Under the pieces are notes generated by a model. That model searched no databases. It saw nothing but the letters and a program-made list of their open reading frames with translations, and was not told the DNA's origin. The position numbers were made by a program, and so were the translations under genes. From an uncultured Fibrobacterota bacterium (GTDB lineage Bacteria > Fibrobacterota > Chitinivibrionia > Chitinivibrionales > FEN-1185), in the NCBI GenBank assembly GCA_963753345.1, contig CAVWBU010000032.1, positions 164,179 to 228,178 of the forward strand: a stretch of 64,000 nt of DNA. Reading direction: 5' to 3'. This document shows, one piece after another, positions 711 to 32,674 of the stretch (position 1 is the stretch's first letter; every line of letters begins with the position of its first letter).

Positions 711-2081
711 ATGACAACACTACCCAAAGTTGGTTCAACGCGCTTTCGGAAATCTTTTGGTCGTGCAACGGGCGCGCTATGGTGCTGCTTATTTCTTTCA
801 ACAGCCAGCGTTTTTTCCCAGCAGGACAGCGCGCCTGTGGTGCTTGCGGCCAATTATCAGATCATGAAGTCCCAGCTCAACGGTCTCATTGACGAAGCCA
901 TCAAAAACAATCCAAGCCTCAAAGCGGCCGGGAATAAGATCGATGCGGCAAAGGCTTCGGTACGTTACGCAAAAAGCCTGGACCCGCCGCAGATCGCCGT
1001 TGAGTTTTATAATTCTCCTATAGCCTCATTTCCGAATCCGTTCAAAGATCAAATGGAATACGACTACTCTATCCAGCAGATGTTTCCGTTTCCCGGAAAG
1101 CTCGGCTCCATGGCAAGAGCAGAGCAAAAACGGGCCGGGATGTTCACGGCCGACCGGCAAACACTGCAACAGGACATTGTCCGCAATGTAAAGACACTCT
1201 ACTTTGATTTATATCTGAAAAACCGGCAAGTGGAAATCAATCATGAAACCCGAATGCTTGTCCGCGAATTCGTTGACATTGCGCGAAAGCAATATGAACT
1301 CGGCATGGGCAAACAATCCGACATACTGCGGGCACAGACCGAGCTGTCGGCGCTTGGGAACGACAGCATCGTGCTCGTTCAACAGCGAAGATCGATGGAA
1401 GGGATGTTCAATGCCGTGTGCAACAGGCCGGTAACAACCGAGATCGGCTTTATCCCGGAAATTGAGCCGGAGATGCCGGACTATGATTTGAACTCGTTGC
1501 TTGGCATGGCGGAAAAGAACCGGCCCGAGCTGAAATCCATGCAGTACGATGTTGAAATGAAGCAGGCCGAGCGACTGGCTTCCGGTAAGGAATATTTGCC
1601 GGATTTCATGGTACGCGGGATGTACAAACAAATGACATCGGCCCCAGACGACTGGAGCCTCATGGTTGGCGCCACGGTCCCGATCGCTCCTTGGTCGTTG
1701 GGGAAAAATTCAGCAGGGACTGCCCGCAGCGACGCGAATATCAAGACGGCGCAGGGTGAGCTCGATAACATGAAGAACATGATAGCTTCGGAAGTCAATG
1801 ATGCGCTCTTGAAGGTTGAAAGCAGCAAGGAACGGCTGAGACTAAGCAAGGAAACCACCATTCCGCAAGCGCAGCAGACGCTCATGAGCGCAATGGCTGC
1901 ATACAAAACGGGAAAAGAGGAATTTCTCATGCTGATTGATATTCAAAGAATGCTTGCCATGGCAAAGCTGGATTATCACATGGCCGTCATGAATCTTCTT
2001 GATAGTCATAGCCAGCTTGAACGTGCGGTTGGGCTGAGTATTGAGGAGATCGGACAATCGCCAAAAGGAGGCCGTCAATGA
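711..2081 (+). CDS. TolC-family outer-membrane efflux protein (CusC/CzcC-like)
   Basis: Signal peptide, A..NNPSL, Q.FPFPGKL, Y..G...DILRAQ repeats; first gene of an RND operon. Start placed at ATG 711 inside ORF 537..2081. Confidence 0.85.
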   Translation: MTTLPKVGSTRFRKSFGRATGALWCCLFLSTASVFSQQDSAPVVLAANYQIMKSQLNGLIDEAIKNNPSLKAAGNKIDAAKASVRYAKSLDPPQIAVEFYNSPIASFPNPFKDQMEYDYSIQQMFPFPGKLGSMARAEQKRAGMFTADRQTLQQDIVRNVKTLYFDLYLKNRQVEINHETRMLVREFVDIARKQYELGMGKQSDILRAQTELSALGNDSIVLVQQRRSMEGMFNAVCNRPVTTEIGFIPEIEPEMPDYDLNSLLGMAEKNRPELKSMQYDVEMKQAERLASGKEYLPDFMVRGMYKQMTSAPDDWSLMVGATVPIAPWSLGKNSAGTARSDANIKTAQGELDNMKNMIASEVNDALLKVESSKERLRLSKETTIPQAQQTLMSAMAAYKTGKEEFLMLIDIQRMLAMAKLDYHMAVMNLLDSHSQLERAVGLSIEEIGQSPKGGRQ

Positions 2082-3571
2082 TTCGTACCGGGAAAACCGC
2101 TGCGACAATTCTTGTCTTGGGTCTGGTTGCTATCGGTCTTTCGGGCTCGTTTATCTCGTGTCAGAAATCCCAGCACGCAGCGCAGGCATCTAGCCAGAAA
2201 GTGATTTACCATTGCCCCATGCATCCGAATTACCTTTCGGACAAACCGGGGACTTGTCCCATATGCGGAATGAAACTCGTACCTGCCGGAGGCGTCCCTG
2301 CGTCCGGCCAACCGGGAAGTGCTGCAATCACAAAGGAACGCAAGGTTCTTTATTATCGCGATGCCATGAATCCCTCGCACACCTCGGAAAAGCCGGGCAA
2401 GGCGCCTGACGGGATGGACATGGTGCCGGTATATACGGACGAGGCCGGGGGTGAAGCCGGAGAGGTGAAAATCGACCCCACAACCGTTCAGAACATGGGG
2501 GTGACGACAGAAACCGTAACGCTGCGCGACCTCAAGAAAGAGATCCGCCTTTCCGGGATCATCGACATAAACGAAACGGCGATCAGCGTCGTCAATACCA
2601 AGATCATGGGATGGGTCGAAAAGCTCTTTATCGATTACACAGGCCAGGCGGTCAGAAAGGGGCAGCCGCTCCTCACCATTTACAGCCCCGACCTTGTGAG
2701 CGCACAGGAGGAATACCTGCAGGCCATTCGTTATCTCAAGGGTCTTCCCGAAGGGATTTCTTCCGACGCGCGGCGCGGCGCAGAGCAGCTTGTCGAAAGC
2801 GGTAGGCGAAGGCTTCTAAACTGGGACATTCCGGAAAAGGCCGTTTCCGCGCTCGAGGCGCGCAACGCTCCGGAAAAGGCCATGACCATCTATTCACCGT
2901 CGGACGGCGTTGTATTGGAGAAAATGGTCGCGGCCGGACAGAATGTTATGCCCGGCATGGCGCTTTACAAGGTGGTGAACATTTCGGTGGTCTGGGGCGT
3001 TGCCAACGTGTACCAGGAGGACCTGCCTTATGTCAAGCTCGGAACCGAAGCGACGGTGGAAGTGCCGTCCATCGCCGGAAGGACATTCCGCGGGAAGGTC
3101 CAGTTTGTGTCGCCGGTTCTCGACCCGTCCACCAAAACCGCGGCGGTCCGCATCGCCCTCCGCAACACCGCTGACCTGCTGCTCAAACCGCAGATGTTTG
3201 CGAACGTAGCCATTCAGTCGCCGCTTTCGCGCAACGCGCTTTCCGTTTCGCAGCAGGCGGTCATTCACACCGGTACCCGGAACATCGTGATTGTTTCGCT
3301 GGGCAACGGCTATTTCAAGCCGCAGGAAGTAAAGCTTGGCATGAGCGCCAATGGGTTTGTGCAGGTCCTCGACGGCCTTGCGGAAGGGCAAACAATCGTC
3401 ACCTCCTCGCAATTTCTCATCGACTCCGAGAGCAACCTGAAGAAGGCGGTGAGCCAAATGGGCGGAATGGAAATGCCGATGCCTTCGCCGGAGCAGCAGC
3501 AAGACACCTCAAAACAGGAAAAGCGGCAGTCGCAGAAGGATCGTCAACAAATGAACATGCCGGGAATGTAA
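2078..3571 (+). CDS. cusB: RND periplasmic adaptor, CusB-like, with heavy-metal-binding domain
   Basis: YHCPMHP..SDKPGTCPICGMKL; YY.DAMNP...KPGKAPDGMDMVP; GWVEKL, YSPDLVSAQEEYL, SSQFLIDSES. Confidence 0.9.
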   Translation: MIRTGKTAATILVLGLVAIGLSGSFISCQKSQHAAQASSQKVIYHCPMHPNYLSDKPGTCPICGMKLVPAGGVPASGQPGSAAITKERKVLYYRDAMNPSHTSEKPGKAPDGMDMVPVYTDEAGGEAGEVKIDPTTVQNMGVTTETVTLRDLKKEIRLSGIIDINETAISVVNTKIMGWVEKLFIDYTGQAVRKGQPLLTIYSPDLVSAQEEYLQAIRYLKGLPEGISSDARRGAEQLVESGRRRLLNWDIPEKAVSALEARNAPEKAMTIYSPSDGVVLEKMVAAGQNVMPGMALYKVVNISVVWGVANVYQEDLPYVKLGTEATVEVPSIAGRTFRGKVQFVSPVLDPSTKTAAVRIALRNTADLLLKPQMFANVAIQSPLSRNALSVSQQAVIHTGTRNIVIVSLGNGYFKPQEVKLGMSANGFVQVLDGLAEGQTIVTSSQFLIDSESNLKKAVSQMGGMEMPMPSPEQQQDTSKQEKRQSQKDRQQMNMPGM

Positions 3572-3592
3572 AAACCATTAGGCGGGAAACCC

Positions 3593-6500
3593 ATGCTCGA
3601 AAAACTCATTGAATGGTCGATTAAGAACAAGTTTCTGGTGATCATGCTCACCATCTTCGCGATCGGCGCCGGCGTTTGGGCGATTGTTACAACGCCGGTT
3701 GACGCGATCCCGGACTTGAGCGACGTGCAGGTGATCGTCTATACCGAGTACGAGGGACAATCGCCGCGCATCGTTGAAGACCAGGTGACCTATCCGCTCA
3801 CCACGTCTTTGCTGTCGGTTCCCGGTGCACGAGTAGTGCGAGGGTATTCGTTTTTCGGCTATTCGCTTGTCTACGTCATCTTCAAGGACGGCACCGACAT
3901 CTACTGGGCGCGCAGCCGCGTGCTTGAGTACCTGAACTATGCCCAGAAACGTTTGCCCGCGGGAGTATTGCCCACGCTCGGGCCGGACGCCACCGGCGTG
4001 GGTTGGGTGTACGAGTATGCCTTGACCTCGCCATACACGATCGCTGCAGGAGCTGCGCTCGCTCCAGGACTGGTACCTGAAATATGGATTGTCAAGCATC
4101 GAGGGCGTCGCCGAGGTGGCGAGCATCGGCGGCTATGTCAAGCAGTACCAGGTGACCGTGGACCCGTCGAAGCTGCAGGCGTACGGCATTCCGGTCGGCG
4201 ACATCGAGATGGCGATAAAGAACGCCAACAGCGACGTGGGCGGCGAGGTGATCGAAATGGCCGAAATGGAGTTCATGATCCGCGGTCTCGGATATATAAA
4301 ATCCATCGACGACATCAAAAACATCCCGGTCAAGACCGACATGCAGCGCGGCGTCGCCGTGCGCATCGGCGACATCGCCGATGTGGCCATCGGGCCCGAG
4401 ATGCGGCGGGGGCTGGCCGATCTTGACGGAAAGGGAGAGGTCGCGGGCGGCATCGTGGTCATGCGGTTCGGCGAAAACGCCCAGAAGGTCATCAAGGCCG
4501 TGGAGAAGAAGCTCGAGGTGCTCAAAGCCGGGCATGCCGCCGGACGTGCAGATCGTGCCGACCTACAACCGCTCGGCGCTCATCGAGCGCGCCATCGCAA
4601 ATCTGCGCGACAAGCTCTTCGAGGAAATCCTCATTGTCGCGCTCGTGTGCGCATTCTTCCTCTTTCACGCGAGAAGCGCGTTCGTGGCGGTATTTACCTT
4701 GCCCACGGCGATACTCATGGCCTTTGTTGTCATGCGGATGCAGGGACTCAATGCGAACATCATGTCGCTCGGCGGCATCGCGATCGCCATCGGCGCCATG
4801 GTGGACGCGGCAATCATCATGATCGAAAACGCGCACAAGCACATCGAGGCCGAAAACGCGAAGCCGCCAGAGGAGCGGCTGCCGCATTGGCAGGTAATAC
4901 TGCAGGCATCGAAGGAGGTGGGGCCGCCGCTGTTCTGGTCGCTCCTGGTGATCACGGTCTCGTTTATCCCGATCTTTACGCTCGAGGCGCAGGAAGGCCG
5001 GCTGTTCAAGCCGCTTGCCTTTACAAAAACGTATTCCATGGCTGCGGCGGCGATACTTGCCGTCACCATCGTGCCGGTGCTCATGGGGTATTTTCGTGCG
5101 CGGAAAAATACGGCCCGAGCACGCAACCCGCTCAACCGGTTTCTCATTTCGCTCTATCATCCGGTGGTCAAATTTGTGGTGCGGTATCCGAAATGGGTCA
5201 TCGCGGCCGCAGTTGTCATCATCGCCGTAAGCGTGGTTCCCTTCCTTAAACTCGGCTCCGAATTCATGCCGCCGCTTTACGAAGGCGATCTGCTCTACAT
5301 GCCCACGACCCTTCCCGGCGTTTCCGATAACCAAGGCAAAAGAGATCCTGCAGCAGACCGACAAGATCATCGCGTCGTTTCCCGAAGTCAAACGCGTGTT
5401 CGGCAAGGCGGGCCGGGCCGAGACCGCCACCGACCCGGCGGGCCTTGACATGCTGGAAACCATCATCATGCTCAAGCCCGAAAAAGAGTGGCCCAAAGGC
5501 ATGACGCACGAAAAACTCGTGCAGCAGCTTGACGAGGCGATAAAATTTCCCGGCCTCACCAACGCCTGGACCATGCCGATCAAGACCCGCACCGACATGC
5601 TCTCCACCGGCATCAAGACCCCGGTCGGCATAAAAATCTCCGGGGCGAACCTTGACACGCTGGAAATGCTCGGCAAGGAGGTGGAGACCGCGGTGCGCGC
5701 GGTGCCGTACACGACCTCGGCGTTCGCCGAACGCGCCGTGGGCGGCAATTACCTCGATATCAAGATCGACCGGGTCAAGGCCGGACGCTACGGCCTTAAC
5801 ATTGGCGACATTCAGTCGGTCATCTCAGACCGCGCTCGGCGGCATGAGCATCACCACCACCGTGGAAGGTCTGGAGCGGTATACGGTCAACCTTCGCTAC
5901 AGCCGGGAACTGCGCGACAATATCGAGGCGCTCAAGCGAGTGCTCGTCACCGGCAAGGGCGGCGGCGGTCAGCCGCCAGGCATGGGCGGCCAGCAATCCG
6001 CAATGGGCGGTCTGCAGGTGCCGCTCGGCCAGGTGGCGGACTTCGAAATCAACAAGGGGCCCATGGTCATCCGGAGCGAAGACAGCCGGCCCAACGCCTG
6101 GGTGTTTGTTGACATGCGGGGGACCGACATGGGCAGCTACATTCGTCAAGCCCAGAAGGCGGTGGCTGCAAAGGTGAAGCTTCCCACGGGCTACAGCATC
6201 ATCTGGAGCGGCGAATACGAATTCATGCAGCGCAGCCAGAAGCGGCTTATGGTGGTCATTCCCATGACGCTGTTCATCATATTCATCATTCTATTCCTGA
6301 ATACGAAGTCGCTTGTCAAAACGGCAATCATCCTTCTGGCCGTTCCGTTTTCCCTTGTCGGCACCGTTTGGTTTTTGTATCTCCTCGGCTACAACATGAG
6401 CCTGGCCGTATGGGTGGGAATCATCGCGCTTGCGGGGCTGACGCCGAGACCGGGGTGGTCATGCTCCTGTATCTCGATCAGGCATATGAGGACGCGAAAA

Positions 6501-6760
6501 AAATGGGCGCTGTGACGATATCCCGTCTCAAGGAGGCCATCGACCACGGCGCGGTGCGACGCGTGCGGCCGAAGATCATGACGGCGTCGGTGATCATCGC
6601 CGGTTTACTTCCGATCATGTGGAGCAACGGCACCGGCTCCGACGTGATGAAGCGGATCGCGGCGCCCATGGTGGGCGGCGTCATAACGTCGGTGCTGATG
6701 GAACTGCTGGTGTATCCGGCGATTTATTTCCTGTGGAGAAAGCGGGGAATACGAAGCTAA
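3593..6760 (+). CDS. cusA: CusA/CzcA heavy-metal efflux RND permease, split by several frameshifts (about 4030, 4530, 5090-5125, 5325, 5830, 6440)
   Basis: [65 protein letters not shown] and [17 protein letters not shown] occur in order across successive frames. Confidence 0.93.
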
Positions 6761-6817
6761 GAAGAAATCATATCAATGGGGTCATCGTATGGACGACAAT
6801 TTCGATTTCGATACACT

Positions 6818-6858
6818 CCCGTTCGTGGTGAGCTTGTCGAACCATGAACGCGAACGGG
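6818..6858. repeat. REP-like palindromic element
   Basis: CCCGTTCGTGGTGAGCTTGTCGAACCATGAACGCGAACGGG, a nested intergenic hairpin resembling a widespread REP-like motif. Confidence 0.55.
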
Positions 6859-6936
6859 TGTCGCCTTTCAATGACCGGACTAAGAAACATGCACAGAAAA
6901 AGGGGTGCAATTAGACATTCACAAAGAGGAGGTTGT

Positions 6937-7461
6937 ATGCGTTTCATGAAGATGTGGTCGGCTATCATTCCGGCGGCGGGCCTTGTTGCGATGCTGGCGG
7001 CAACCGGCTCCATGGGGCAGGCAATGCAAGGCATGACGGGCGATACGGCAAAGACGGCGGCCCATGCAAAAAAGCTTAAGCCCCAGGCAACCTGCCCGGT
7101 CACCGGAGACCCGATTAACAAAAAGCTATACGTTGACCATAAGGGAAAAAGGATTTACGTCTGCTGTCCCATGTGCATCGACTCGGTGAAAAAGGACCCG
7201 GAAAAATATGTCAAAAAGCTTGAAAGCATGGGGCAAGGGGTTGAAACGATCAGCGCCAAAACGTTGAAGGAAAGCAAAAGCGCGAAAGCGGACACGTCAA
7301 CCGCCGCTGAAGCAGGCTACTGGACATGCCCCATGCACCCGGAAATCCACAAGTCCGCGCCGGGACAATGCCCGATTTGCGGAATGAACCTGGAGTATAA
7401 AAAGGTCGCCAAAGACGCACCGAAAGCAAAGAGTACGGAAATGAAAGACATGAAGATGTAA
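6937..7461 (+). CDS. Secreted YHS plus heavy-metal-binding (CPMHP) protein
   Basis: GAGGAGG RBS, signal peptide, TCPVTGDPINK..YVCCPMC, then YWTCPMHPEI...PGQCPICGMNL, Met-rich tail. Confidence 0.85.
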   Translation: MRFMKMWSAIIPAAGLVAMLAATGSMGQAMQGMTGDTAKTAAHAKKLKPQATCPVTGDPINKKLYVDHKGKRIYVCCPMCIDSVKKDPEKYVKKLESMGQGVETISAKTLKESKSAKADTSTAAEAGYWTCPMHPEIHKSAPGQCPICGMNLEYKKVAKDAPKAKSTEMKDMKM

Positions 7462-7539
7462 TCAAGGAATGACCAAATGAAATCCTTGAACACGGGATTG
7501 TATGACAACAATTTCTTTTGCCTTCGGTGACTTGCTCAT

Positions 7540-9860
7540 ATGCAAAAAGTTGTGACAACTTCGCTTCCAGCTTCTTCCGTCGACCCAGTCTGCGGAATGA
7601 CCGAGACGCCGCAATGGACGCGATCGTACGTTTACAAAGGCGTCACGTACCGATTCTGCTCAGAAGGATGCCTCGTTAAATTCAAGAATGATCCCGAGCG
7701 CTATTTGAATCCGGTCAAGCAACCTGAGCCTCCGAGCTCCGACGCGCTGGCACATTTTACCTCTGCCCTATGGACCCCGAAGTACGGTCTCCTAAACCCG
7801 GCGCTTGTCCCAAATGCGGCATGGCGCTGGAACCGGAAACGATATCGGTTACAAATGAGAAAAATCCCGAGCTTATCGACATGACCCGCAGGTTCTGGAT
7901 AAGCCTTGCCCTTTCCGCGCCGCTGGTGAGCGTAGCCATGCTGCACATGGCGCCGGGTTTCTTTCCGCATTCCTTGACAAACGCCGCGCAATGGCTGGAG
8001 CTTGCGCTGGCGACGCCGGTGGTGCTCTGGGCCGGATGGCCGTTTTTCGTGCGGGCCAAGAACTCGCTTGTCAACAGAAGCCCCAACATGTTCACGCTCA
8101 TCGGCTTCGGCGTGGCGGTTTCTTATTTGTACAGCGTCATTGCGACGCTGCTGCCCGGCCTGTTCCCAGCCGCCTTCCGGAGCAGCCACGGCGCTGTTGC
8201 CGTGTATTTCGAAGCGAGCGCCACCATTGTCACGCTTGTTCTGCTCGGTCAGGTGCTGGAGCTTCGCGCCCGGCAAAGAACCGGCGACGCGATCCGGGCG
8301 CTCCTGTCGCTCGCGCCAAAAACCGCCGTTAAGCTTTCGGCCGGCGGCGTCGAGGAGACCGTGCCCATTGACAGAATACTACCAGGCGATACTCTGCGAG
8401 TACGGCCGGGCGAGAAAATCCCGGTTGACGGCGTGGTAATCGATGGCGTTACATCCGTTGACGAGTCTATGATGACAGGAGAGCCCCTGCCCGTTCAAAA
8501 AGCCCCGGGAGACCCGGTAATCGGCGCTACGGTGAATGCAAGCGGGTCCGTGATCATGAAGGCAAAGGCCGTGGGCGGCCAAACGCTCCTCGCGCAGATC
8601 GTTGCCATGGTGGCCGCGGCGCAGCGGAGCCGTCCGCCCATCCAGAAACTGGCCGACCGGGTCGCGTCGTATTTCGTTCCCGCCGTGGCGGCCGCGTCGG
8701 TGCTGACGTTTGCCGCATGGGCGCTTTTCGGTCCGCCGCCGGCTATGGCATATGCATTGGTAAACGCAGTCGCCGTGCTCATCATCGCATGCCCCTGCGC
8801 CCTGGGGCTTGCCACGCCCATGTCGATCATGGTCGTCATGGGCAGGGCCGCCGGAGCGGGCGTGCTGTTCCGGGACGCGGCGGCCGTGGAAGTGCTGGGA
8901 AAGGTCGACACGCTTGTCATTGACAAGACGGGAACCTTGACGCGGGGGAAGCCGGAGGTAACCATGGTGCTGGCGGCGCCGGGCTTTTTCGAAAACGACG
9001 TGCTGGGGATGGCCGCCGGGCTTGAGAAGAAAAGCGAGCATCCGTGGGCCGCCGCGATCACGCAGGCCGCTGCATCGCGCGGCATGGCCCTGATCGAAGC
9101 GACAACCTTTGTTTCGACCACCGGACGCGGCGTGAGCGGAACGGTGCAGGGGCGAATTGTGACATTGGGGAATCGCGCCTTTCTGGAGGGCGCGTCCGCA
9201 TTCCCGCCGGAACTGCTTGCAAAGGCCGAGTCTGCGGCCGCGGAAGCGAAAGGCGTGACGTACGTTGCGGTCGACGGCAGGGCCGCGGGCCTGATCGTGG
9301 TGTCGGACACGATCAAGGACTCGGCGCAGCGTGCGGTGCGGGAGCTTCACAAAGAGGGATTGCGCATCGTGATGCTTACCGGAGACAGCGCCGCAAGCGC
9401 ACGGGCGGTCGCCGGCGCGCTCGGCATCGACGAGGTGATCGCCGAAGTGCTTCCCGGCCAGAAAGCCGAGGCGGTGAGGCGGCTTCAGGACGAAGGCCGG
9501 ATCGTTGCCATGGCAGGCGACGGCATCAACGACGCACCTGCTCTCGCGCAGGCGCACGTGGGCATCGCCATGGGAACCGGCACCGACACGGCCATGGAGA
9601 GCGCGGGCGTGACGCTGGTCAAAGGCGAGCTCATCGCGATTGTCCGGGCCCGGCGCCTGAGCCGCGCCGCCATGAGAAACATCAGACAGAACCTTGGGTT
9701 CGCGTTTGTCTATAATTCGCTGGGCATTCCCCTGGCCGCGGGCGCGCTGTATCCGCTGTTCGGGATTCTTCTGAGCCCCATGATTGCCGCCGCGGCCATG
9801 AGCTTTTCGTCGGTCTCGGTGATTTCAAATGCGTTACGGTTGAGGAAGGTAAAGTTGTGA
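7540..9860 (+). CDS. copA: Cu(+)-type P1B ATPase with N-terminal YHS and HMBD domains; frameshift near 7755-7770
   Basis: [60 protein letters not shown] and MSFSS motifs. Confidence 0.93.
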
Positions 9861-10025
9861 AGGGGATGTAAGAATAATAACCTGAGAGACAGGGAGGACA
9901 CGGAGAAAGAAAAGGCAGGTGGTTTACGGTTGATTGAGGAGTTGAGAAGAAAAAAGCGTTGAAAAGCAGAAAATGCAAAGAACAGGTTTGGCTGATTATT
10001 GCGGCTGCCGATTGGCGCGAAACAG

Positions 10026-10225
10026 AGTAATTGACTAAATAGAATTCTGCTGCCGCGCGTTAGGGGCGACCGGAAGTCCCGCTAGAGTGGGATGCCGCCC
10101 GGACCCGGCCGCGTACCCGCGGCATTGGGCCGTGGCGGCCCGAGGGCTTGCCCGAGACTGGAGGGAGAACCGCCCCCAGTGTAGAGACGCCACACCGTGG
10201 CGTCTCTACACTGGGGGAACGCCCA
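10026..10225. repeat. Structured intergenic repeat, copy 1 of 3, containing a GTAG-type perfect palindrome at 10173-10217
   Basis: Shares AGTAATTGACT..TCTGCTGCCGC..TTAGG..GACCG..GCTAGAG..AACGCCCA with 18236-18417; inner palindrome has 21-bp arms and a 3-nt loop. Confidence 0.75.
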
Positions 10226-10243
10226 GATCTTTTTCTTATTTCC

Positions 10244-11695: not shown

Positions 11696-11889
11696 GGATT
11701 CCTCCTGTGAAAAAAGGGTGCATCAGACAATATAAATGTTTCCGGATTGGCAAGCACACTGGTAAAGACCCGCAAGCCGCGCGGAATCGCTCATGAGAAG
11801 ATGAGGGACAAAGGTGACGGCCCTGGCCGCTATCGTATATTTTTGATAATCCACCGGGGCGTGGGCCCGGGTCAATCCCACAGCGAGCG

Positions 11890-12900: not shown

Positions 12901-13542
12901 ATGGAATTTCGTTCGGCAGAAGCCATTGAACAACGAATAAGTGAATTGAGCCCGGTCTTTGACCTTGGGGATGGTCCGCTTCTGGAAGAGTACAATTTGC
13001 TGGTTTATTTCAGGTTACTCGCGTATGAGAAGATTATAACCTTTCCCTTCGACGTAAACAAATCAGAGGCTCCAGATTTTGTATGCCAAATTGGCCCAAA
13101 CACCGTTGGTATAGAAGTTACCCACAGTGTTGTTAAGAATCATTTCCAGAATCTCAAAAGACATATTCTGGAGCCTGATTCCATTATCGAGATCTGTAGA
13201 GACGGGGTCTCTTATTTCCGCTCGGAAAAGGAGGGCTATTGTTGTCCCCCTGTTTACCATGATGGAGCAGAGACTTTATGGATGGGGTTTATCAGAAAGT
13301 CCTTGGAAAAGAAAGTGTCTAAATTCCTTTCTCATTACCATCAATTCGAGCGGAATATTCTTCTGATCCGTGATTTCACCAATCTTCCGCTCAAAAACCG
13401 TCCTCTTACAGCCCAACAGCTCCTCATGGAATTCAGCGGCAACCTGTTGGACAAGTTTAATGAAGTTACGATAATTCTTGGTGACAACTGCATGATATTC
13501 GATGCATTTGACAAATCAAAATTAATTAAGGTTGACCTTTGA
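12901..13542 (+). CDS. Hypothetical protein, possible PD-(D/E)XK nuclease fold
   Basis: EAPDF...GIEVT motif; lower GC than flanks. Confidence 0.55.
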   Translation: MEFRSAEAIEQRISELSPVFDLGDGPLLEEYNLLVYFRLLAYEKIITFPFDVNKSEAPDFVCQIGPNTVGIEVTHSVVKNHFQNLKRHILEPDSIIEICRDGVSYFRSEKEGYCCPPVYHDGAETLWMGFIRKSLEKKVSKFLSHYHQFERNILLIRDFTNLPLKNRPLTAQQLLMEFSGNLLDKFNEVTIILGDNCMIFDAFDKSKLIKVDL

Positions 13543-13575
13543 TCGGAATATTAGTTTTCTATTGGAGAGCCACAC

Positions 13576-15138
13576 ATGTTTAAGAATTTAATTATCTTAT
13601 TGATCCCCACGGTATTCCTTTATTCTCAGCAAAATACTGCCCCAACGATCGCAGTTAGCGACCTTGTCGGCCAAGGTGTTAATCAGAGCGAGGCGACCGT
13701 CGTAAGTGAACAGCTTCGGACGGAATTGCAAAAGACAGGACATTTTCGCATTATAGAGCGAAACCAAATGCAGGAAATTCTTAAGGAACAGGGTTTTCAG
13801 CAAACAGGCTGCACAACTGATGCTTGCGCTGTAGAGGTGGGGCAATTGCTTGGCGTGAAAAACATCGTCGTGGGATCCCTTGGAATTGCGGGGAGCTACA
13901 CCGTCCTGACCGTAAGGATTCTTGATGTTCAGACTGGCGAGGTACTTGTTACTGAAACAGGGAACGCCAAAGGTGGTATTGATGAAATGATTGAAAAGGG
14001 AATACGCGAAGTAGCCGGAAAATTGGTCGTTGATTTGTCAAGGATCATGTGCCAAGCAATAGTCGATGCGGCAAAGAACGGGAATCTCAAAGAAAAAAGT
14101 CTCTTGCAGCGAGGCGCGGATGTGAATTCGAAGGCAAACAGTGGCTGGACTCCGCTGCATTGCGCTGCAAAATATGGGCATGAGGCCATAGTGAGTTTTC
14201 TGATTAGCAAAGGCGCAAATGTAAATGCGAAGATCAGCGGTGGCTGGACTCCGCTGCATGAGGCTGCTGAAGCTGGCTATATAGAAGCAGTCAAGATTCT
14301 TTTGAACAACGGTGCAGATGTGAATTCAGTGAGTTATCTTGTTGACGAAGGCGCGGATGTGAATTCGAAGGCAAACAGTGGCTGGACTCCGCTGCATTGT
14401 GCTTCAAAATATGGGCATGAGGCCATAGTGAGTTACCTGATTAGCAAAGGCTCGAATGTGAATGCCAAGACCAATAATGGCTGGACTCCGCTGCATGAGG
14501 CTGCTGAAGCTGGCTACACGGAAGTAGTCAAGATTCTGTTGAACAATGGTGCAGATGTGAATTCAAAAGCCAACGGGGGCGAAACTGCGTTGCATTGTGC
14601 CTCCGTTTTTAGACATGAAACCGTAGTGAATTATTTAATTAGTAAAGGCGCAAATGTGAATGTAAAAGACATTACTGGAGCAACTCCGTTGTATTATGCC
14701 GCCATAAATGGGAATGAGGTCATAGTGAATTATCTGGTCATCAAAGGCGCGGATGTGAATTCGAAGGCAAACAATGGCTGGACTCCGCTGCATTGTGCTG
14801 CCCACAACGGACAGGAGGGTGTAGTAAAGTTCCTGATCACCAACGGTGCAAATGTGAATTCGAAGGCAGACAGTGGCTGGATTCCGCTGCATTTAGCTGC
14901 TGACAGTGGCCACGCAGAAATAGTCAAAATCCTGTTGAACAAGGGTGCTGATGTGAATGCGAAGACAAGCAATGGCTTTTCCGCTTTGGACGTGGCTGCG
15001 TCTCGCGGGCATTCGGATGTGGTGGAGATACTCAAGGAATACAGGGCAAAGCATCGGCTTGTAGACATTCATCTTACTCCCGAAGAGATAAAATCGGCGG
15101 GATTTGAAAAGAAACCCGACACCACGCATGACCGATAG
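13576..15138 (+). CDS. Secreted ankyrin-repeat protein with N-terminal CsgG/HfaB-like domain
   Basis: Signal peptide; IIER.QMQEILKEQGFQQTGC..DACAVEVGQLLG; about 10 GADVN.K..GWTPLH.AA..GH repeats. Confidence 0.9.
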   Translation: MFKNLIILLIPTVFLYSQQNTAPTIAVSDLVGQGVNQSEATVVSEQLRTELQKTGHFRIIERNQMQEILKEQGFQQTGCTTDACAVEVGQLLGVKNIVVGSLGIAGSYTVLTVRILDVQTGEVLVTETGNAKGGIDEMIEKGIREVAGKLVVDLSRIMCQAIVDAAKNGNLKEKSLLQRGADVNSKANSGWTPLHCAAKYGHEAIVSFLISKGANVNAKISGGWTPLHEAAEAGYIEAVKILLNNGADVNSVSYLVDEGADVNSKANSGWTPLHCASKYGHEAIVSYLISKGSNVNAKTNNGWTPLHEAAEAGYTEVVKILLNNGADVNSKANGGETALHCASVFRHETVVNYLISKGANVNVKDITGATPLYYAAINGNEVIVNYLVIKGADVNSKANNGWTPLHCAAHNGQEGVVKFLITNGANVNSKADSGWIPLHLAADSGHAEIVKILLNKGADVNAKTSNGFSALDVAASRGHSDVVEILKEYRAKHRLVDIHLTPEEIKSAGFEKKPDTTHDR

Positions 15139-31373: not shown

Positions 31374-32216
31374 ATGTCGATATTCTTTTGCAAGTCGTTA
31401 CCAACCGTTTCTATTGTGATTTTCTTTTTGTCTTTCTGGGGTTGCGGTAAGAATCCAGCTGCACCAATGAATGTGGTGCAAACAATAGTGATGAAGGACA
31501 TTCCAGCCGGGACGTTTACCATGGGATCATCGGATACTGTGGATGGTCCTGTCGCTTCTCCGCCTCATCAGGTTACGTTGAGTGCGTTTAAGATGTCGGA
31601 GACCGATGTAACGCAGGAGCAGTATCTGGCGGTGATGGAAACGAACCCATCGTATTTTGATACGGGAACAGGCGCATCACTGAGGCCGGTTGAGAAAGTG
31701 AGTTGGCACGACGCTGTGAAATACTGCAACGCTTTAAGCCTGCTTTCCGGCCTTACCGCAGTGTATGATACATCAGCGTGGACAGCGGACTTTTCGAAAA
31801 CCGGATACCGATTGCCAACGGAGGCGCAGTGGGAATACGCCTGCCGTGCAGGGTCAACTACAGAATTCTGGTGGGGGCCTGATACAAATGGCATGGGGGC
31901 GCGTACATGGTCGTATTATAACAGCGGCGGCACAACTCACCCTGTCGCAACAAAGCTGGCGAATGCTTATGGACTGTACGATATGACGGGGAATGTGTGG
32001 CAGTGGTGTAACGACTGGTATGGGGATTATACGGCGGGAGCGGCAACTGATCCGACTGGTGCTTCAACTGGGACGTACCGCGTTCTGCGTGGGGGCTCGT
32101 GGTTCAGCGACGACGGCGGAGGCGGCGTCGGCTTCCGTTCTGCGTTTCGTTACGTCAGCAACCCGGCGGCCTACGGGCACGAAGACCAGGGGTTTCGTGT
32201 TGTGCTTCCCCGGTAG
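31374..32216 (+). CDS. Formylglycine-generating enzyme (FGE/CLec fold) lipoprotein, candidate DGR target
   Basis: Lipobox-like WGC; IPAGTFTMGS, YRLPTEAQWEYACRAG, NAYGLYDMTGNVWQWC.DWY, RVLRGGSW...GFRVV. Confidence 0.92.
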   Translation: MSIFFCKSLPTVSIVIFFLSFWGCGKNPAAPMNVVQTIVMKDIPAGTFTMGSSDTVDGPVASPPHQVTLSAFKMSETDVTQEQYLAVMETNPSYFDTGTGASLRPVEKVSWHDAVKYCNALSLLSGLTAVYDTSAWTADFSKTGYRLPTEAQWEYACRAGSTTEFWWGPDTNGMGARTWSYYNSGGTTHPVATKLANAYGLYDMTGNVWQWCNDWYGDYTAGAATDPTGASTGTYRVLRGGSWFSDDGGGGVGFRSAFRYVSNPAAYGHEDQGFRVVLPR

Positions 32217-32339
32217 AATTTATCTGACACTCCCGTCTTTTTCGATCCGGGGTGCGAAAGCGCCTCGGATCGTTTTACGAAATGGACTCCTGTGAGGGAT
32301 GTGTCCCATGAAGGAAAGACCGTTTCGACCTAAAATCCG

Positions 32340-32613
32340 AGTGTACACTTAGTGTACACTTTTTCGTAGTACTTGGTAGTATTTGGTAGTACTTGGAGTT
32401 GAAGGCAGAAAACAAAAAAGCCCCCAAACTGCTTAAATCTTGCAAATTTGGGGACTTTTTTGGTACACCATTCAGGATTCGAACCTGAGACCTACTGATT
32501 AAGAGTCAAAAGTTCCGAAAAGTAAAATAAGCTATAAGTGTTTGATGCAGCAAAATATCGCAGGGTCGGAACAAGATGGTCGCAGTGGTCAAATGTACAC
32601 TTAATGTACACTT
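32340..32613 (-). other. attP-like site: 3' half of tRNA-Lys(CTT) at 32461-32508 with paired arm repeats on both sides
   Basis: Minus strand TGACTCTTAATCAGTAGGTCTCAGGTTCGAATCCTGAATGGTGTACCA; AGTGTACACT x2 at 32340, GTAGTAYTTG x3, AATGTACACTT x2 at 32592. Confidence 0.85.
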
Positions 32614-32674
32614 TTTAAGAAGAATTGTGCCTATTGTTTCGAGAACACCACATGGGGCGCGAAACAGCCCTTTC

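What the first reader, a model, noticed from the sequence alone, without database searches (positions are those of the whole stretch)
32076..32272. FGE/CLec lipoprotein with a DGR variable-region signature and downstream hairpin, but no TR or RT nearby
Seen: between GGSW and GFRVV the codons read TTC AGC GAC GAC GGC GGA GGC GGC GTC GGC TTC cgt tct gcg TTT cgt TAC GTC AGC AAC ccg gcg GCC TAC ggg CAC gaa GAC. Most non-scaffold codons are NNC, and the peptide (FSDDGGGGVGF) is odd. A 13-bp hairpin with a GAAA loop (32243-32272, two G-T pairs) starts 27 bp after the stop. Known: DGRs mutate adenines in AAC-rich template repeats, giving NNC codons in this part of CLec/FGE targets, and a hairpin after the variable region aids target recognition. 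Inference: this is a remote DGR target diversified in trans, or the relic of one, sitting about 70 bp from an attP-like site and so possibly mobile.
Basis: partly seen in the sequence, partly recalled or inferred. Interest (0 to 1): 0.78.

Follow-up and report, generated by a model that had tools for sequence, protein, structure and literature searches.

The report
Orphaned, frozen DGR target gene
This lipoprotein gene carries the marks of a diversity-generating retroelement that once rewrote its tip, but the retroelement is not in the assembly and the tip has stayed fixed for a long time, a state already described in other bacteria.

Summary
Between GGSW and GFRVV, 18 of 29 codons end in C, against 42 of 243 upstream (p 8e-7). 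A 13-bp GAAA hairpin follows the stop.

The gene (31374-32216) belongs to a large FGE/C-type-lectin family whose scaffold is invariant and whose C-terminal stretches are hypervariable. Its best solved relative is the Treponema DGR variable protein TvpA.

In metagenome contig L140 a close relative is followed by the same hairpin, then bAvd, a DGR-type reverse transcriptase and the start of a template repeat. That start is 27/27 identical to window 32076-32102.

The window's own 94%-complete assembly has no DGR reverse transcriptase, Avd or template repeat. None of 7 other genomes of its taxonomic family has one.

Orthologues 88-97% identical keep the same variable region. Against G004 its dS (0.42) equals the rest of the gene (0.46) and omega is 0.24, so it has not been rewritten since that split.

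Verdict: an orphaned, frozen DGR target. Orphan targets are already reported in Treponema denticola. An unassembled DGR acting in trans is not excluded.

The parts
31374..32216 (+). 280-aa probable lipoprotein. A hydrophobic signal ends in FWGC, followed by an FGE-sulfatase/C-type-lectin-fold domain. This is the former DGR target gene.
   Evidence: ORF (the ORF opens at GTG 31278; the ATG at 31374 gives the signal peptide). Pfam FGE-sulfatase E 1.9e-50, residues 42-277. Best solved relative is 2Y3C, Treponema denticola variable protein 1, E 7.4e-38, against about 1e-17 for true FGEs. The lipoprotein call is read from the sequence; no predictor was run.
32076..32102 (+). 5' scaffold of the variable region (YRVLRGGSW).
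   Evidence: The 27 nt are identical to the start of the template repeat found after the reverse-transcriptase gene at the end of metagenome contig L140 (3341-3374). They are also identical to the same scaffold in L141.
32103..32189 (+). Variable stretch of 29 codons (FSDDGGGGVGFRSAFRYVSNPAAYGHEDQ), now frozen.
   Evidence: 18/29 NNC against 42/243 upstream. The same peptide with few changes occurs in P0001 (97% identical protein), P0002/G004/L138 (88-89%) and P0022. Against G004: dS 0.415, dN 0.098, omega 0.24. The G002 homologue that shares the downstream flank is only 51.6% identical here, against 85.8% just upstream.
32190..32216 (+). 3' scaffold GFRVVLPR plus stop. This is where the template repeat/variable region homology ends in relatives (the IMH-equivalent position).
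   Evidence: It differs at 1 base of the 24 before the stop codon from L139/L140. It is 88.9% identical to G002. In the related DGR L229 the homology between the two repeats ends at the stop codon. IMH function is not testable without the cognate template repeat.
32243..32272 (+). DGR-type target hairpin: 13-bp stem with two G-T pairs and a GAAA loop.
   Evidence: Fold. The 24-nt core occurs once in the 4.5-Mb assembly (up to 3 mismatches allowed). It recurs after the variable region of L139 and L140 (then bAvd and reverse transcriptase) and of L141. It is found in 3 of 81 genomes of the order, all in this genus. It fits the published pattern of a GC-rich stem and a 4-nt GRNA loop within 4-34 bp of the variable region (PMC3240598, passages).
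32273..32338 (.). Short stub between the hairpin and the tRNA scar. Its first ~25 nt resemble the start of the avd gene region of L139-L141. No avd, reverse transcriptase or template repeat follows.
   Evidence: Alignment A1. In L140 this position opens the bAvd gene. G002 has a stub of similar length (71 vs 66 nt, 50% identity). The similarity is weak, so reading it as an avd remnant is inference.
32340..32508 (-). Context and boundary: a copy of the 3' 45 nt of tRNA-Lys(CTT), its terminator and a GTACAC-TTA-GTACAC repeat. This is an integration scar.
   Evidence: 94% identical to C40:88002-88170, where the intact tRNA-Lys(CTT) lies at 87974-88049. ARAGORN calls no tRNA here. G002 has the same block followed by a tyrosine-integrase-like ORF (named from its sequence, no family search). 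G004:C23 has an intact tRNA-Lys 2 kb after a paralogue.

Best explanation
The gene encodes a probably surface-exposed lipoprotein of the C-type-lectin/FGE fold. Its C-terminal ligand-binding stretch was once rewritten by a diversity-generating retroelement (DGR).

In such a system a reverse transcriptase, with Avd, copies a template repeat rich in AAC codons. Adenines are misread during copying. The cDNA then replaces the variable region, guided by the shared scaffold and a downstream GRNA-loop hairpin. This leaves NNC codons in the target.

Here only the target half survives: the scaffold, the NNC-rich variable region, the hairpin and a short stub where avd begins in relatives. The avd-RT-TR half is absent from the locus and from the assembly. 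The variable region has since evolved like any other coding sequence, under purifying selection, so the protein now has one fixed specificity.

Shown: the codon signature, the family link to complete DGRs, the absence of the cassette from the assembly, and the conservation of the variable region among orthologues. Inferred: that a cassette once acted on this very copy, that it was lost rather than left unassembled, and the binding role of the protein.
For: 1. Codon signature: 18/29 NNC against 42/243 upstream, p 8e-7. The paralogue control supports it.

2. Family: the best 120 of 7939 homologues (E<=1e-10) were listed, and their tails were read. Most share the scaffold ...YRVLRGGSW-x-FRSAxR-x-P-x-GFRVVLPR, with unrelated, length-variable, Y/D/N/G/F-rich inserts.

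3. A complete DGR beside a close relative: in L140 the target is followed by the same hairpin, bAvd (PF22296, E 7.8e-14), a reverse transcriptase (RVT_1, E 4.8e-17, IGNMTSQ motif), and a template-repeat start 27/27 identical to window 32076-32102 and followed by AAC. The frame-shifted tail of P0121 (99% identical to that reverse transcriptase) reads as W-NNNN-x-N-FRSANR-NNNN-P-xNKxNNN-GFRVVLPR (my back-reading).

4. DGRs with adenine-specific mismatches exist in the same order: G040, G019, G021 and G041, G045.

5. Hairpin: it is unique in the genome and conserved after the variable regions of L139, L140, L141 and G002.

6. No cassette in the own assembly. RVT_1 gave 0 matches. tblastn with three DGR reverse transcriptases gave a best E of 0.016. 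The L140 reverse transcriptase gave nothing at E<=1. The only bAvd-like hit scores 36.6 bits, below the cut-off of 40, with no reverse transcriptase beside it. Word-7 blastn found no copy of the variable region. No AAY-rich template-like window was found, while 9 of 9 control loci show one.

7. The L140 reverse transcriptase finds 0 of 7 other genomes of the taxonomic family, against 21 of 81 genomes of the order.

8. Frozen: the same variable region occurs in proteins 97%, 88-89% and 89% identical. Against G004, dS in the variable region is 0.415 and in the rest 0.462, with omega 0.24. Several third positions have drifted away from C (GGA, TTT, GAA, CAG), and there is a one-codon indel.

9. 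Best PDB relative is the DGR variable protein TvpA.
Against: The assembly is a 94.26%-complete draft with 4.79% contamination. DGR repeats assemble and bin badly, so absence of the cassette is not proven.

The hairpin is intact with a consensus GAAA loop, and the scaffold is nearly unchanged. That is what a still-competent target would look like.

G002, which shares the cassette-less downstream junction, has a wholly different variable region (51.6% identity). This means at least one rewriting after that junction arose, unless the two junctions arose separately or the 3' ends were exchanged by recombination.

No full cognate template repeat of matching length was found. The first variable stretch has 10 codons here and 6 in the P0121-type template, so the decisive adenine-only comparison could be made for only one variable codon (TTC vs AAC).

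No reads were available to test variation within the population.
Confidence: 0.74

Rival explanations
1. The gene is an active remote target. A DGR cassette of the same organism, or of a phage or plasmid it carries, lies on DNA that was not assembled or binned. That cassette still rewrites this variable region in trans, using the intact scaffold and hairpin.
For: The hairpin is intact with a GAAA loop. The 5' scaffold is 27/27 identical to a real template-repeat start. The assembly is only 94% complete. G000 and G002 share the cassette-less junction but have unrelated variable regions, both with 10 codons in the first variable stretch. Of 5 GFRVVLP-type loci in the metagenome set, 3 (L138, L141, L142) have no reverse transcriptase within the 1.6, 5.5 and 10 kb of sequence available downstream, so targets without an adjacent cassette are common in this family.
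Against: The variable region is the same in four distinct lineages. Its synonymous divergence from G004 equals that of the rest of the gene, with omega 0.24. One homing event would have re-drawn about 20 codons. None of the 8 genomes of the taxonomic family has a DGR reverse transcriptase. Third positions have drifted away from C. The scaffold pattern and the hairpin pattern are absent from the viral contig collection.
Confidence: 0.13
2. The locus is not DGR-related. The C-terminal stretch is an ordinary fast-evolving loop of a paralogous FGE-domain family, its NNC bias reflects local composition (a Gly/Asp-rich peptide), and the hairpin is simply the gene's transcription terminator.
For: GGC, GAC and GTC are common GC-rich codons, and the stretch has 66.7% GC against 52.3% upstream. 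The stem is followed by TTTT. The family varies in length, which plain homing from one template does not produce.
Against: The same hairpin and scaffold DNA sit next to bAvd, a reverse transcriptase and a template repeat in L139 and L140. Two-fold codons switch from 23 C: 30 T upstream to 9 C: 1 T inside. The terminator scan does not call this hairpin, and the hairpin is unique in the genome. Length change between template and variable region is seen in a bona fide DGR: L229 has 12 codons where its template repeat has 6.
Confidence: 0.03
3. The variable 3' end, with its hairpin, is passed between paralogues and genomes by recombination or on the tRNA-Lys-integrating element. On this reading the differences between species reflect swapping of ready-made ends, not local DGR action.
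For: Flanking genes differ between G000, G002 and G004, and only the gene plus about 170 nt upstream and the tRNA scar are shared. G004:C30 holds an orphan hairpin plus stub with no target gene. A tyrosine-integrase-like ORF follows the scar in G002. An IS element splits the G002 copy.
Against: This does not explain the origin of the NNC codons, which still needs a DGR somewhere. The pre-VR coding sequence and the GFRVVLPR scaffold are equally similar between G000 and G002 (85.8% and 88.9%), with the drop confined to the variable stretches. That is the pattern of DGR rewriting, not of a recombination block.
Confidence: 0.08

Closest known systems
[quoted passage not shown]
   Same: TvpA is the best solved relative (E 7.4e-38). 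It is an FGE-type C-type-lectin-fold protein, often a lipoprotein, with a C-terminal variable region. Nimkulrat et al. 2016 (PMC4891356, passages read) report isolates with neither reverse transcriptase nor template repeat whose target genes still differ from the species' template repeats mostly at adenine positions. They read these as remnants of repeated DGR gain and loss.
   Different: A different phylum (homologues are named Chitinispirillaceae). Here no genome of the taxonomic family has the cassette (0 of 8), so the cognate template is known only from a metagenome fragment. Freezing is shown by dS and omega across species. The hairpin is retained.
Bordetella phage BPP-1 DGR target site (mtd VR, IMH, hairpin/cruciform)
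   Same: A variable region at the 3' end of a C-type-lectin-fold gene, followed by a GC-rich inverted repeat with a 4-nt GAAA loop on the sense strand. Guo et al. 2011 (PMC3240598, passages read) give 7-10 bp GC-rich stems, a GRNA loop, and a distance of 4-34 bp from the variable region, and show the hairpin is needed for efficient homing.
   Different: The stem here is 13 bp with two G-T pairs, 26 nt after the stop. Relatives L141, G002 and G004 have GTAA or GCAA loops, which do not fit GRNA. No reverse transcriptase, Avd or template repeat is present. The (GC)14 plus 21-bp IMH could not be assessed.
Remote (trans) DGR targets, as in Treponema, Legionella and cyanobacteria
   Same: A target gene with scaffold and hairpin but no adjacent cassette. 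Roux et al. 2021 (PMC8144416, passage read) note that RT-anchored surveys miss such targets.
   Different: Remote targets have a cassette elsewhere in the same genome. None was found here. (That Legionella and cyanobacteria have remote targets is recalled, not checked.)
Formylglycine-generating enzyme (FGE/SUMF1) family, Pfam PF03781
   Same: The domain matches at E 1.9e-50.
   Different: True FGEs score far lower than TvpA (about 1e-17). The stretch after GGSW, where canonical relatives in my loci carry a C-x4-C motif (for example L188 and L189), has no cysteine here. That those cysteines are the catalytic pair is recalled, not tested.

Membership tests
Diversity-generating retroelement (complete system) | DGR-clade reverse transcriptase in the locus or genome | tested here: not met
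   RVT_1 gave 0 matches in the own assembly. tblastn with 3 DGR reverse transcriptases gave a best E of 0.016, and that hit is a template-encoded tail against an FGE paralogue. The L140 reverse transcriptase gave no match at E<=1. The assembly is 94.26% complete.
Diversity-generating retroelement (complete system) | Template repeat paired with the variable region, mismatches at template adenines | tested here: not met
   Word-7 blastn of 31950-32300 against the assembly found no second copy of the variable region. No AAY-rich template-like window was found, while controls scored 9 of 9. Only a 34-nt template-repeat start from another organism (L140) could be compared: 27/27 scaffold bases identical, then AAC against TTC.
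Diversity-generating retroelement (complete system) | Accessory gene (Avd-type) next to the reverse transcriptase | tested here: not met
   The only bAvd-like match is C31:77828-78124, at 36.6 bits (cut-off 40), with no reverse transcriptase beside it.
DGR target (variable protein) of the C-type-lectin/FGE type | C-terminal variable region in a CLec/FGE-fold domain, with an NNC codon signature on an invariant scaffold | tested here: met
   Pfam, TvpA as best PDB relative, 18/29 NNC, and an invariant scaffold with hypervariable inserts across the family.
DGR target (variable protein) of the C-type-lectin/FGE type | GC-rich hairpin with a 4-nt GRNA loop shortly after the variable region | tested here: met
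   32243-32272, GAAA loop, 26 nt after the stop. The same element lies between target and avd in L139 and L140. Criteria are from PMC3240598.
DGR target (variable protein) of the C-type-lectin/FGE type | Ongoing diversification (variable regions differ between close relatives or within populations) | tested here: not met
   The same variable region occurs in proteins 97%, 88-89% and 89% identical. dS in the variable region is 0.415, against 0.462 for the rest, with omega 0.24. Variation within the population is not testable here because no reads were available.
DGR target (variable protein) of the C-type-lectin/FGE type | IMH at the 3' end of the variable region that differs from the IMH* of the template repeat | not testable with these tools
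   No cognate template-repeat 3' end is available as DNA.
Catalytic formylglycine-generating enzyme | Cysteine pair after the GGS[WY] motif (recalled as catalytic) | tested here: not met
   There is no cysteine in residues 225-280 (translation). Canonical tails with C-x4-C are seen in L188 and L189.
Intrinsic terminator | GC-rich stem followed directly by a T-run | tested here: inconclusive
   The stem is followed by GTTTTACG (4 T). The scan's rule of at least 5 T in 8 bases is not met, so the hairpin is not listed. A weak terminator role cannot be excluded.

The most novel reading that the evidence does not exclude
The locus is a latent landing pad, not a dead relic. In this genus the target, hairpin and stub persist without any resident cassette. 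The hairpin core differs from G002 at only 3 of 24 bases, while the spacer and stub on either side have decayed to about 50% identity. G000 and G002 share the same cassette-less junction yet carry unrelated variable regions on the same 10-codon first stretch. That pattern would fit episodic rewriting in trans by DGR cassettes that pass through on mobile DNA, with selection keeping the target competent between visits.
Probability: 0.12. Interest if true: 0.7.

Novelty: new member of a known kind. Interest (0 to 1): 0.4.

Why it matters
It shows that a DGR footprint can be recognised from sequence alone in a genome with no retroelement. The footprint here is NNC codons on a conserved scaffold plus a GRNA hairpin.

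RT-anchored surveys cannot see such loci (PMC8144416, passage), so lost or trans-acting DGR activity is probably under-counted.

For this family the set of relatives gives a natural series. It runs from a complete cassette (L140), to target plus hairpin only (window, G002, L141), to target only (G004:C1, C19), to hairpin only (G004:C30). That series could be used to date DGR loss, and to ask whether a once-hypervariable binding site is kept under purifying selection after freezing; omega is 0.24 here.

It is not a new mechanism.

Tried and rejected
1. The genome-contig scan with the whole protein returned only distant FGE proteins (50% identity or less) from other phyla.

2. Three viral-contig scans, for the template-repeat start, the scaffold and the hairpin, found nothing. 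There is therefore no evidence of a phage-borne cognate DGR in that collection.

3. The RVT_1 hits in the same genus were checked and rejected as DGRs. The G002:C32 reverse transcriptase (and the G033:C1 one, in another family of the order) has YVDD and a QGxxxS-type motif and sits beside an HTH gene. The G004:C29 locus (L053) gave no tblastn hit at E<=1e-5 with the DGR reverse transcriptases and has no repeat pair. G004:C38 was not examined further; the DGR reverse transcriptase of L140 finds nothing in G004.

4. The 82-nt repeat in L052 has mismatches of all kinds. It is not a template/variable pair.

5. The bAvd-like ORF on C31 was rejected.

6. The template repeats of genus g22 have a different scaffold (LCAAYR...GFRCVRR), so they are not cognate to this variable region.

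7. A full cognate template repeat as DNA was not obtained. L140 ends 34 nt into it, so I could only read it from the frame-shifted tail of reverse-transcriptase homologues.

8. No compensatory changes were seen among the five hairpin variants. The 3' arm is invariant, and the 5' arm changes give a wobble pair or a mismatch, so covariation gives no support for the structure.

9. Earlier notes of this scan hold nothing on this locus or on a DGR in this genome.
Full report
**What is at the coordinates**

Window 31374-32216 (+) encodes a 280-aa protein. A hydrophobic N-terminus ends in FWGC, and an FGE-sulfatase domain follows (Pfam E 1.9e-50, residues 42-277). The window is G000:C32:164179-228178, in a 4.5-Mb, 55-contig assembly that is 94.26% complete.

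Between GGSW and GFRVV (32103-32189), 18 of 29 codons end in C, against 42 of 243 upstream (Fisher p 8.1e-7). C/T two-fold codons switch from 23 C: 30 T upstream to 9 C: 1 T inside. The richest 11-codon window of the gene (10 of 11 NNC) starts at the first codon after GGSW.

Seven of the genome's FGE paralogues could be parsed (8 of the 11 Pfam hits were given; C31 failed to parse). Among them only this gene (p 4.5e-6) and its nearest paralogue on C19 (p 1.5e-3) show the bias. C15 is marginal (p 0.02) and four others are flat.

The hairpin at 32243-32272 has 13 pairs, two of them G-T, and a GAAA loop. Its DNA fold energy is -13.5 kcal/mol, and it begins 26 nt after the stop.

**The family**

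The protein search gave 7939 homologues at E<=1e-10 among 8000 scored candidates. I read the tails of the best 120. Most share an almost invariant scaffold, GNVWQWCNDWYG..TDPTG..YRVLRGGSW - x - FRSAxR - x - P - x - GFRVVLPR. The 'x' stretches are unrelated between members, differ in length, and are rich in Y, D, N, G, F, S, I and V. That is the residue set NNC codons give.

The best solved relative is Treponema denticola variable protein 1 (2Y3C, E 7.4e-38). True formylglycine-generating enzymes score about 1e-17. Residues 225-280 contain no cysteine.

**Link to real DGRs**

Complete DGRs with FGE-type targets exist in the same order. G040:C58, G019:C19 and G021:C3 have reverse transcriptases with the IGNL[TV]SQ motif. 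They also have repeat pairs whose mismatches fall at adenines of one copy.

A metagenome scan with the last 80 residues gave five loci of the GFRVVLP type. Two of them, L139 and L140, have a DGR reverse transcriptase starting about 385 nt after the stop.

L140 reads, in order:
- target (395-1858);
- a hairpin;
- bAvd (PF22296, E 7.8e-14);
- a reverse transcriptase (RVT_1, E 4.8e-17; IGNMTSQ, YVRYVDD);
- the first 34 nt of a template repeat, at the contig end.

That template-repeat start is 27/27 identical to window 32076-32102. It then continues AAC where the window has TTC.

A protein 99% identical to this reverse transcriptase (P0121) runs on through the template repeat in another frame. Read back into the target frame, its tail gives W-NNNN-x-N-FRSANR-NNNN-P-x-N-K-x-NNN-GFRVVLPR (my reading). 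L139's variable region fits that template codon for codon.

The window's second variable stretch (TAC GTC AGC AAC) fits adenine-only change. Most of the third stretch does too, including GGG for AAG. Departures are GAA, CAG, TTT, GGA and an extra GCG codon, and the first stretch has 10 codons against the template's 6.

Length change is not an argument against DGR origin. In the complete DGR of G041:C111 (L229) the variable region carries 12 codons where its own template repeat has 6, as two independently mutated copies of the same 18 nt.

**The hairpin is part of the target, not a generic repeat**

- The 24-nt core occurs once in the assembly, even with 3 mismatches allowed. It therefore does not belong to the high-copy structured repeats that earlier notes report for this genome.
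- It recurs after the variable regions of L139, L140 and L141.
- It is not in the viral contig collection.
- In 81 genomes of the order it is found only in this genus: G000, G002:C28 and G004:C30.
- The terminator scan does not list it.

It fits the description of Guo et al. 2011 (PMC3240598, passages): GC-rich stems, 4-nt GRNA loops on the sense strand, 4-34 bp after the variable region, and a requirement for efficient homing. The loops of L141, G002 and G004 (GTAA, GCAA) do not fit GRNA. I saw no compensatory changes among the five variants.

**No cassette here**

- RVT_1 finds nothing in the assembly.
- tblastn with three DGR reverse transcriptases, and a motif scan, find nothing. The best E is 0.016, a template-encoded tail against an FGE paralogue.
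- The L140 reverse transcriptase finds nothing at E<=1.
- The only bAvd-like ORF (C31, 36.6 bits, cut-off 40) has no reverse transcriptase beside it.
- Word-7 blastn finds no second copy of the variable region. The only hit is the C19 paralogue, whose similarity (75.6% over 160 nt) stops where the variable stretch starts.
- A composition scan for AAY-rich frames finds no template-like window, while 9 of 9 control loci score 12-15 of 40. The one own-genome window at 14 of 40 is a Q/N/K low-complexity stretch.
- Across the order, the L140 reverse transcriptase matches 21 of 81 genomes at E<=1e-10. The weaker matches are probably other reverse-transcriptase classes. It matches 0 of 7 other genomes of this taxonomic family and 0 of 5 of the genus.

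**Frozen, not active**

The same variable region, with few changes, is found in:
- P0001 (97% identical protein; one V/I change in the variable region);
- P0002, G004:C1 and L138 (88-89% identical);
- P0022 (89% identical).

Against G004 the variable region has dS 0.415 and dN 0.098 (omega 0.24). The rest of the mature domain has dS 0.462 and omega 0.09. Six of the 12 substitutions in the variable region are synonymous, and there is a one-codon indel.

A single homing event would have re-drawn about 20 codons, so none has happened since these lineages split. G004's copy has also lost the hairpin.

**A complication**

G002:C28 carries a homologue that is split by an IS element. It shares the window's downstream arrangement: hairpin, a stub of similar length, then a 170-nt block. 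Identity to the window, block by block, is:

| Block | Identity |
|---|---|
| Before the variable region | 85.8% |
| Variable region | 51.6% |
| GFRVVLPR scaffold | 88.9% |
| Spacer | 47% |
| Hairpin (core differs at 3 of 24) | 73% |
| Stub | 50% |
| 170-nt block | 89.8% |

Both copies have 10 mostly-NNC codons in the first stretch. If the junction is ancestral, at least one variable region was rewritten when no cassette lay beside the gene, that is, in trans. This keeps the trans reading alive for the past, though not for the present.

**The 'attP-like site'**

Window 32340-32508 (minus strand) is 94% identical to C40:88002-88170. That region holds the 3' 45 nt of an intact tRNA-Lys(CTT) gene (C40:87974-88049), its terminator and a GTACAC-TTA-GTACAC repeat.

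G002 has the same scar followed by a tyrosine-integrase-like ORF. G004:C23 has an intact tRNA-Lys 2 kb after a paralogue.

This is a tRNA integration scar. By the usual geometry of tRNA integration, the lipoprotein gene is on the chromosomal side of it (inference).

**Comparison with what is known**

Orphan targets in genomes without a cassette are described for T. denticola. There, isolates with neither reverse transcriptase nor template repeat keep target genes whose variable regions differ from the species' template repeats mostly at adenine positions. These are read as remnants of DGR gain and loss (PMC4891356, passages). RT-anchored surveys state that they miss remote targets (PMC8144416, passage). 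I saw only passages of these papers, not their supplements.

**Verdict**

This is a true DGR footprint, best read as an orphaned and frozen target: a new member of a known kind. Confidence is 0.74. An unassembled DGR acting in trans stands at 0.13.

Noticed in passing
L229 (G041:C111:28000-44000) 6442-6580 vs 8068-8200: In a complete DGR of the same order, the variable region has 12 codons (YDDFGYGYGLDL) where its own template repeat has 6 (NNNNDN). The 12 codons look like two independently mutated tandem copies of the same 18 nt. This suggests template slippage or re-copying during homing as a source of length variation in variable regions.
   Followed up: partly
G000:C19:160934-161665 (-): The closest paralogue in the same genome (61% identical) has the same scaffold with another variable stretch (GNAFVLLRSATRFLLDPGYCCDS). 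Of its 23 codons, 14 are NNC (p 1.5e-3) and most of the rest are NNT. It has no hairpin. It looks like an older, more decayed DGR fossil.
   Followed up: partly
L235 (G004:C30:29000-39000), hairpin at G004:C30:34937-34960 (-): An orphan copy of the hairpin plus the ~25-nt stub (ATGAGTTTTTGTG...) with no FGE target gene upstream. It is the converse fossil: the recognition element survives without the target.
   Followed up: no
L236 (G002:C28:243000-252000) 1016-3850: The homologue that shares the window's downstream flank is split after about residue 180 by a 1.8-kb insertion encoding a 515-aa transposase-like ORF. A tyrosine-integrase-like ORF (4200-5264, minus strand) follows the tRNA-Lys scar.
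   Followed up: partly
window 32340-32508 and 32590-32616; G000:C40:87974-88172: A 170-nt duplicate (94% identical) of the tRNA-Lys(CTT) 3' end, terminator and a GTACAC-TTA-GTACAC repeat. A second copy of the repeat lies 250 nt further on. The intact tRNA is on another contig, so an integrated element probably spans the contig break.
   Followed up: partly
L052 (G002:C32) 6496-7813 and L057 (G033:C1) 5301-6534: Two relatives carry the same two-gene unit: a small HTH (XRE-like) protein overlapping a 320-350-aa reverse transcriptase with YVDD. It is not of the DGR type and is possibly a retron- or Abi-like defence reverse transcriptase.
   Followed up: no
L153 (metagenome contig) 6739-7118, 10001-10231, 11704-11825, 13460-13729: One DGR locus with a template repeat and at least two, perhaps three, FGE-type targets that share an identical 3' flank after the stop codon. 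It is a multi-target cassette.
   Followed up: no
L052 (G002:C32) 2023-6366: A 1447-aa repeat-rich surface protein whose C-terminus looks like the Fibrobacter 'major paralogous domain', another lectin-like module. The name is recalled; no family search was run.
   Followed up: no
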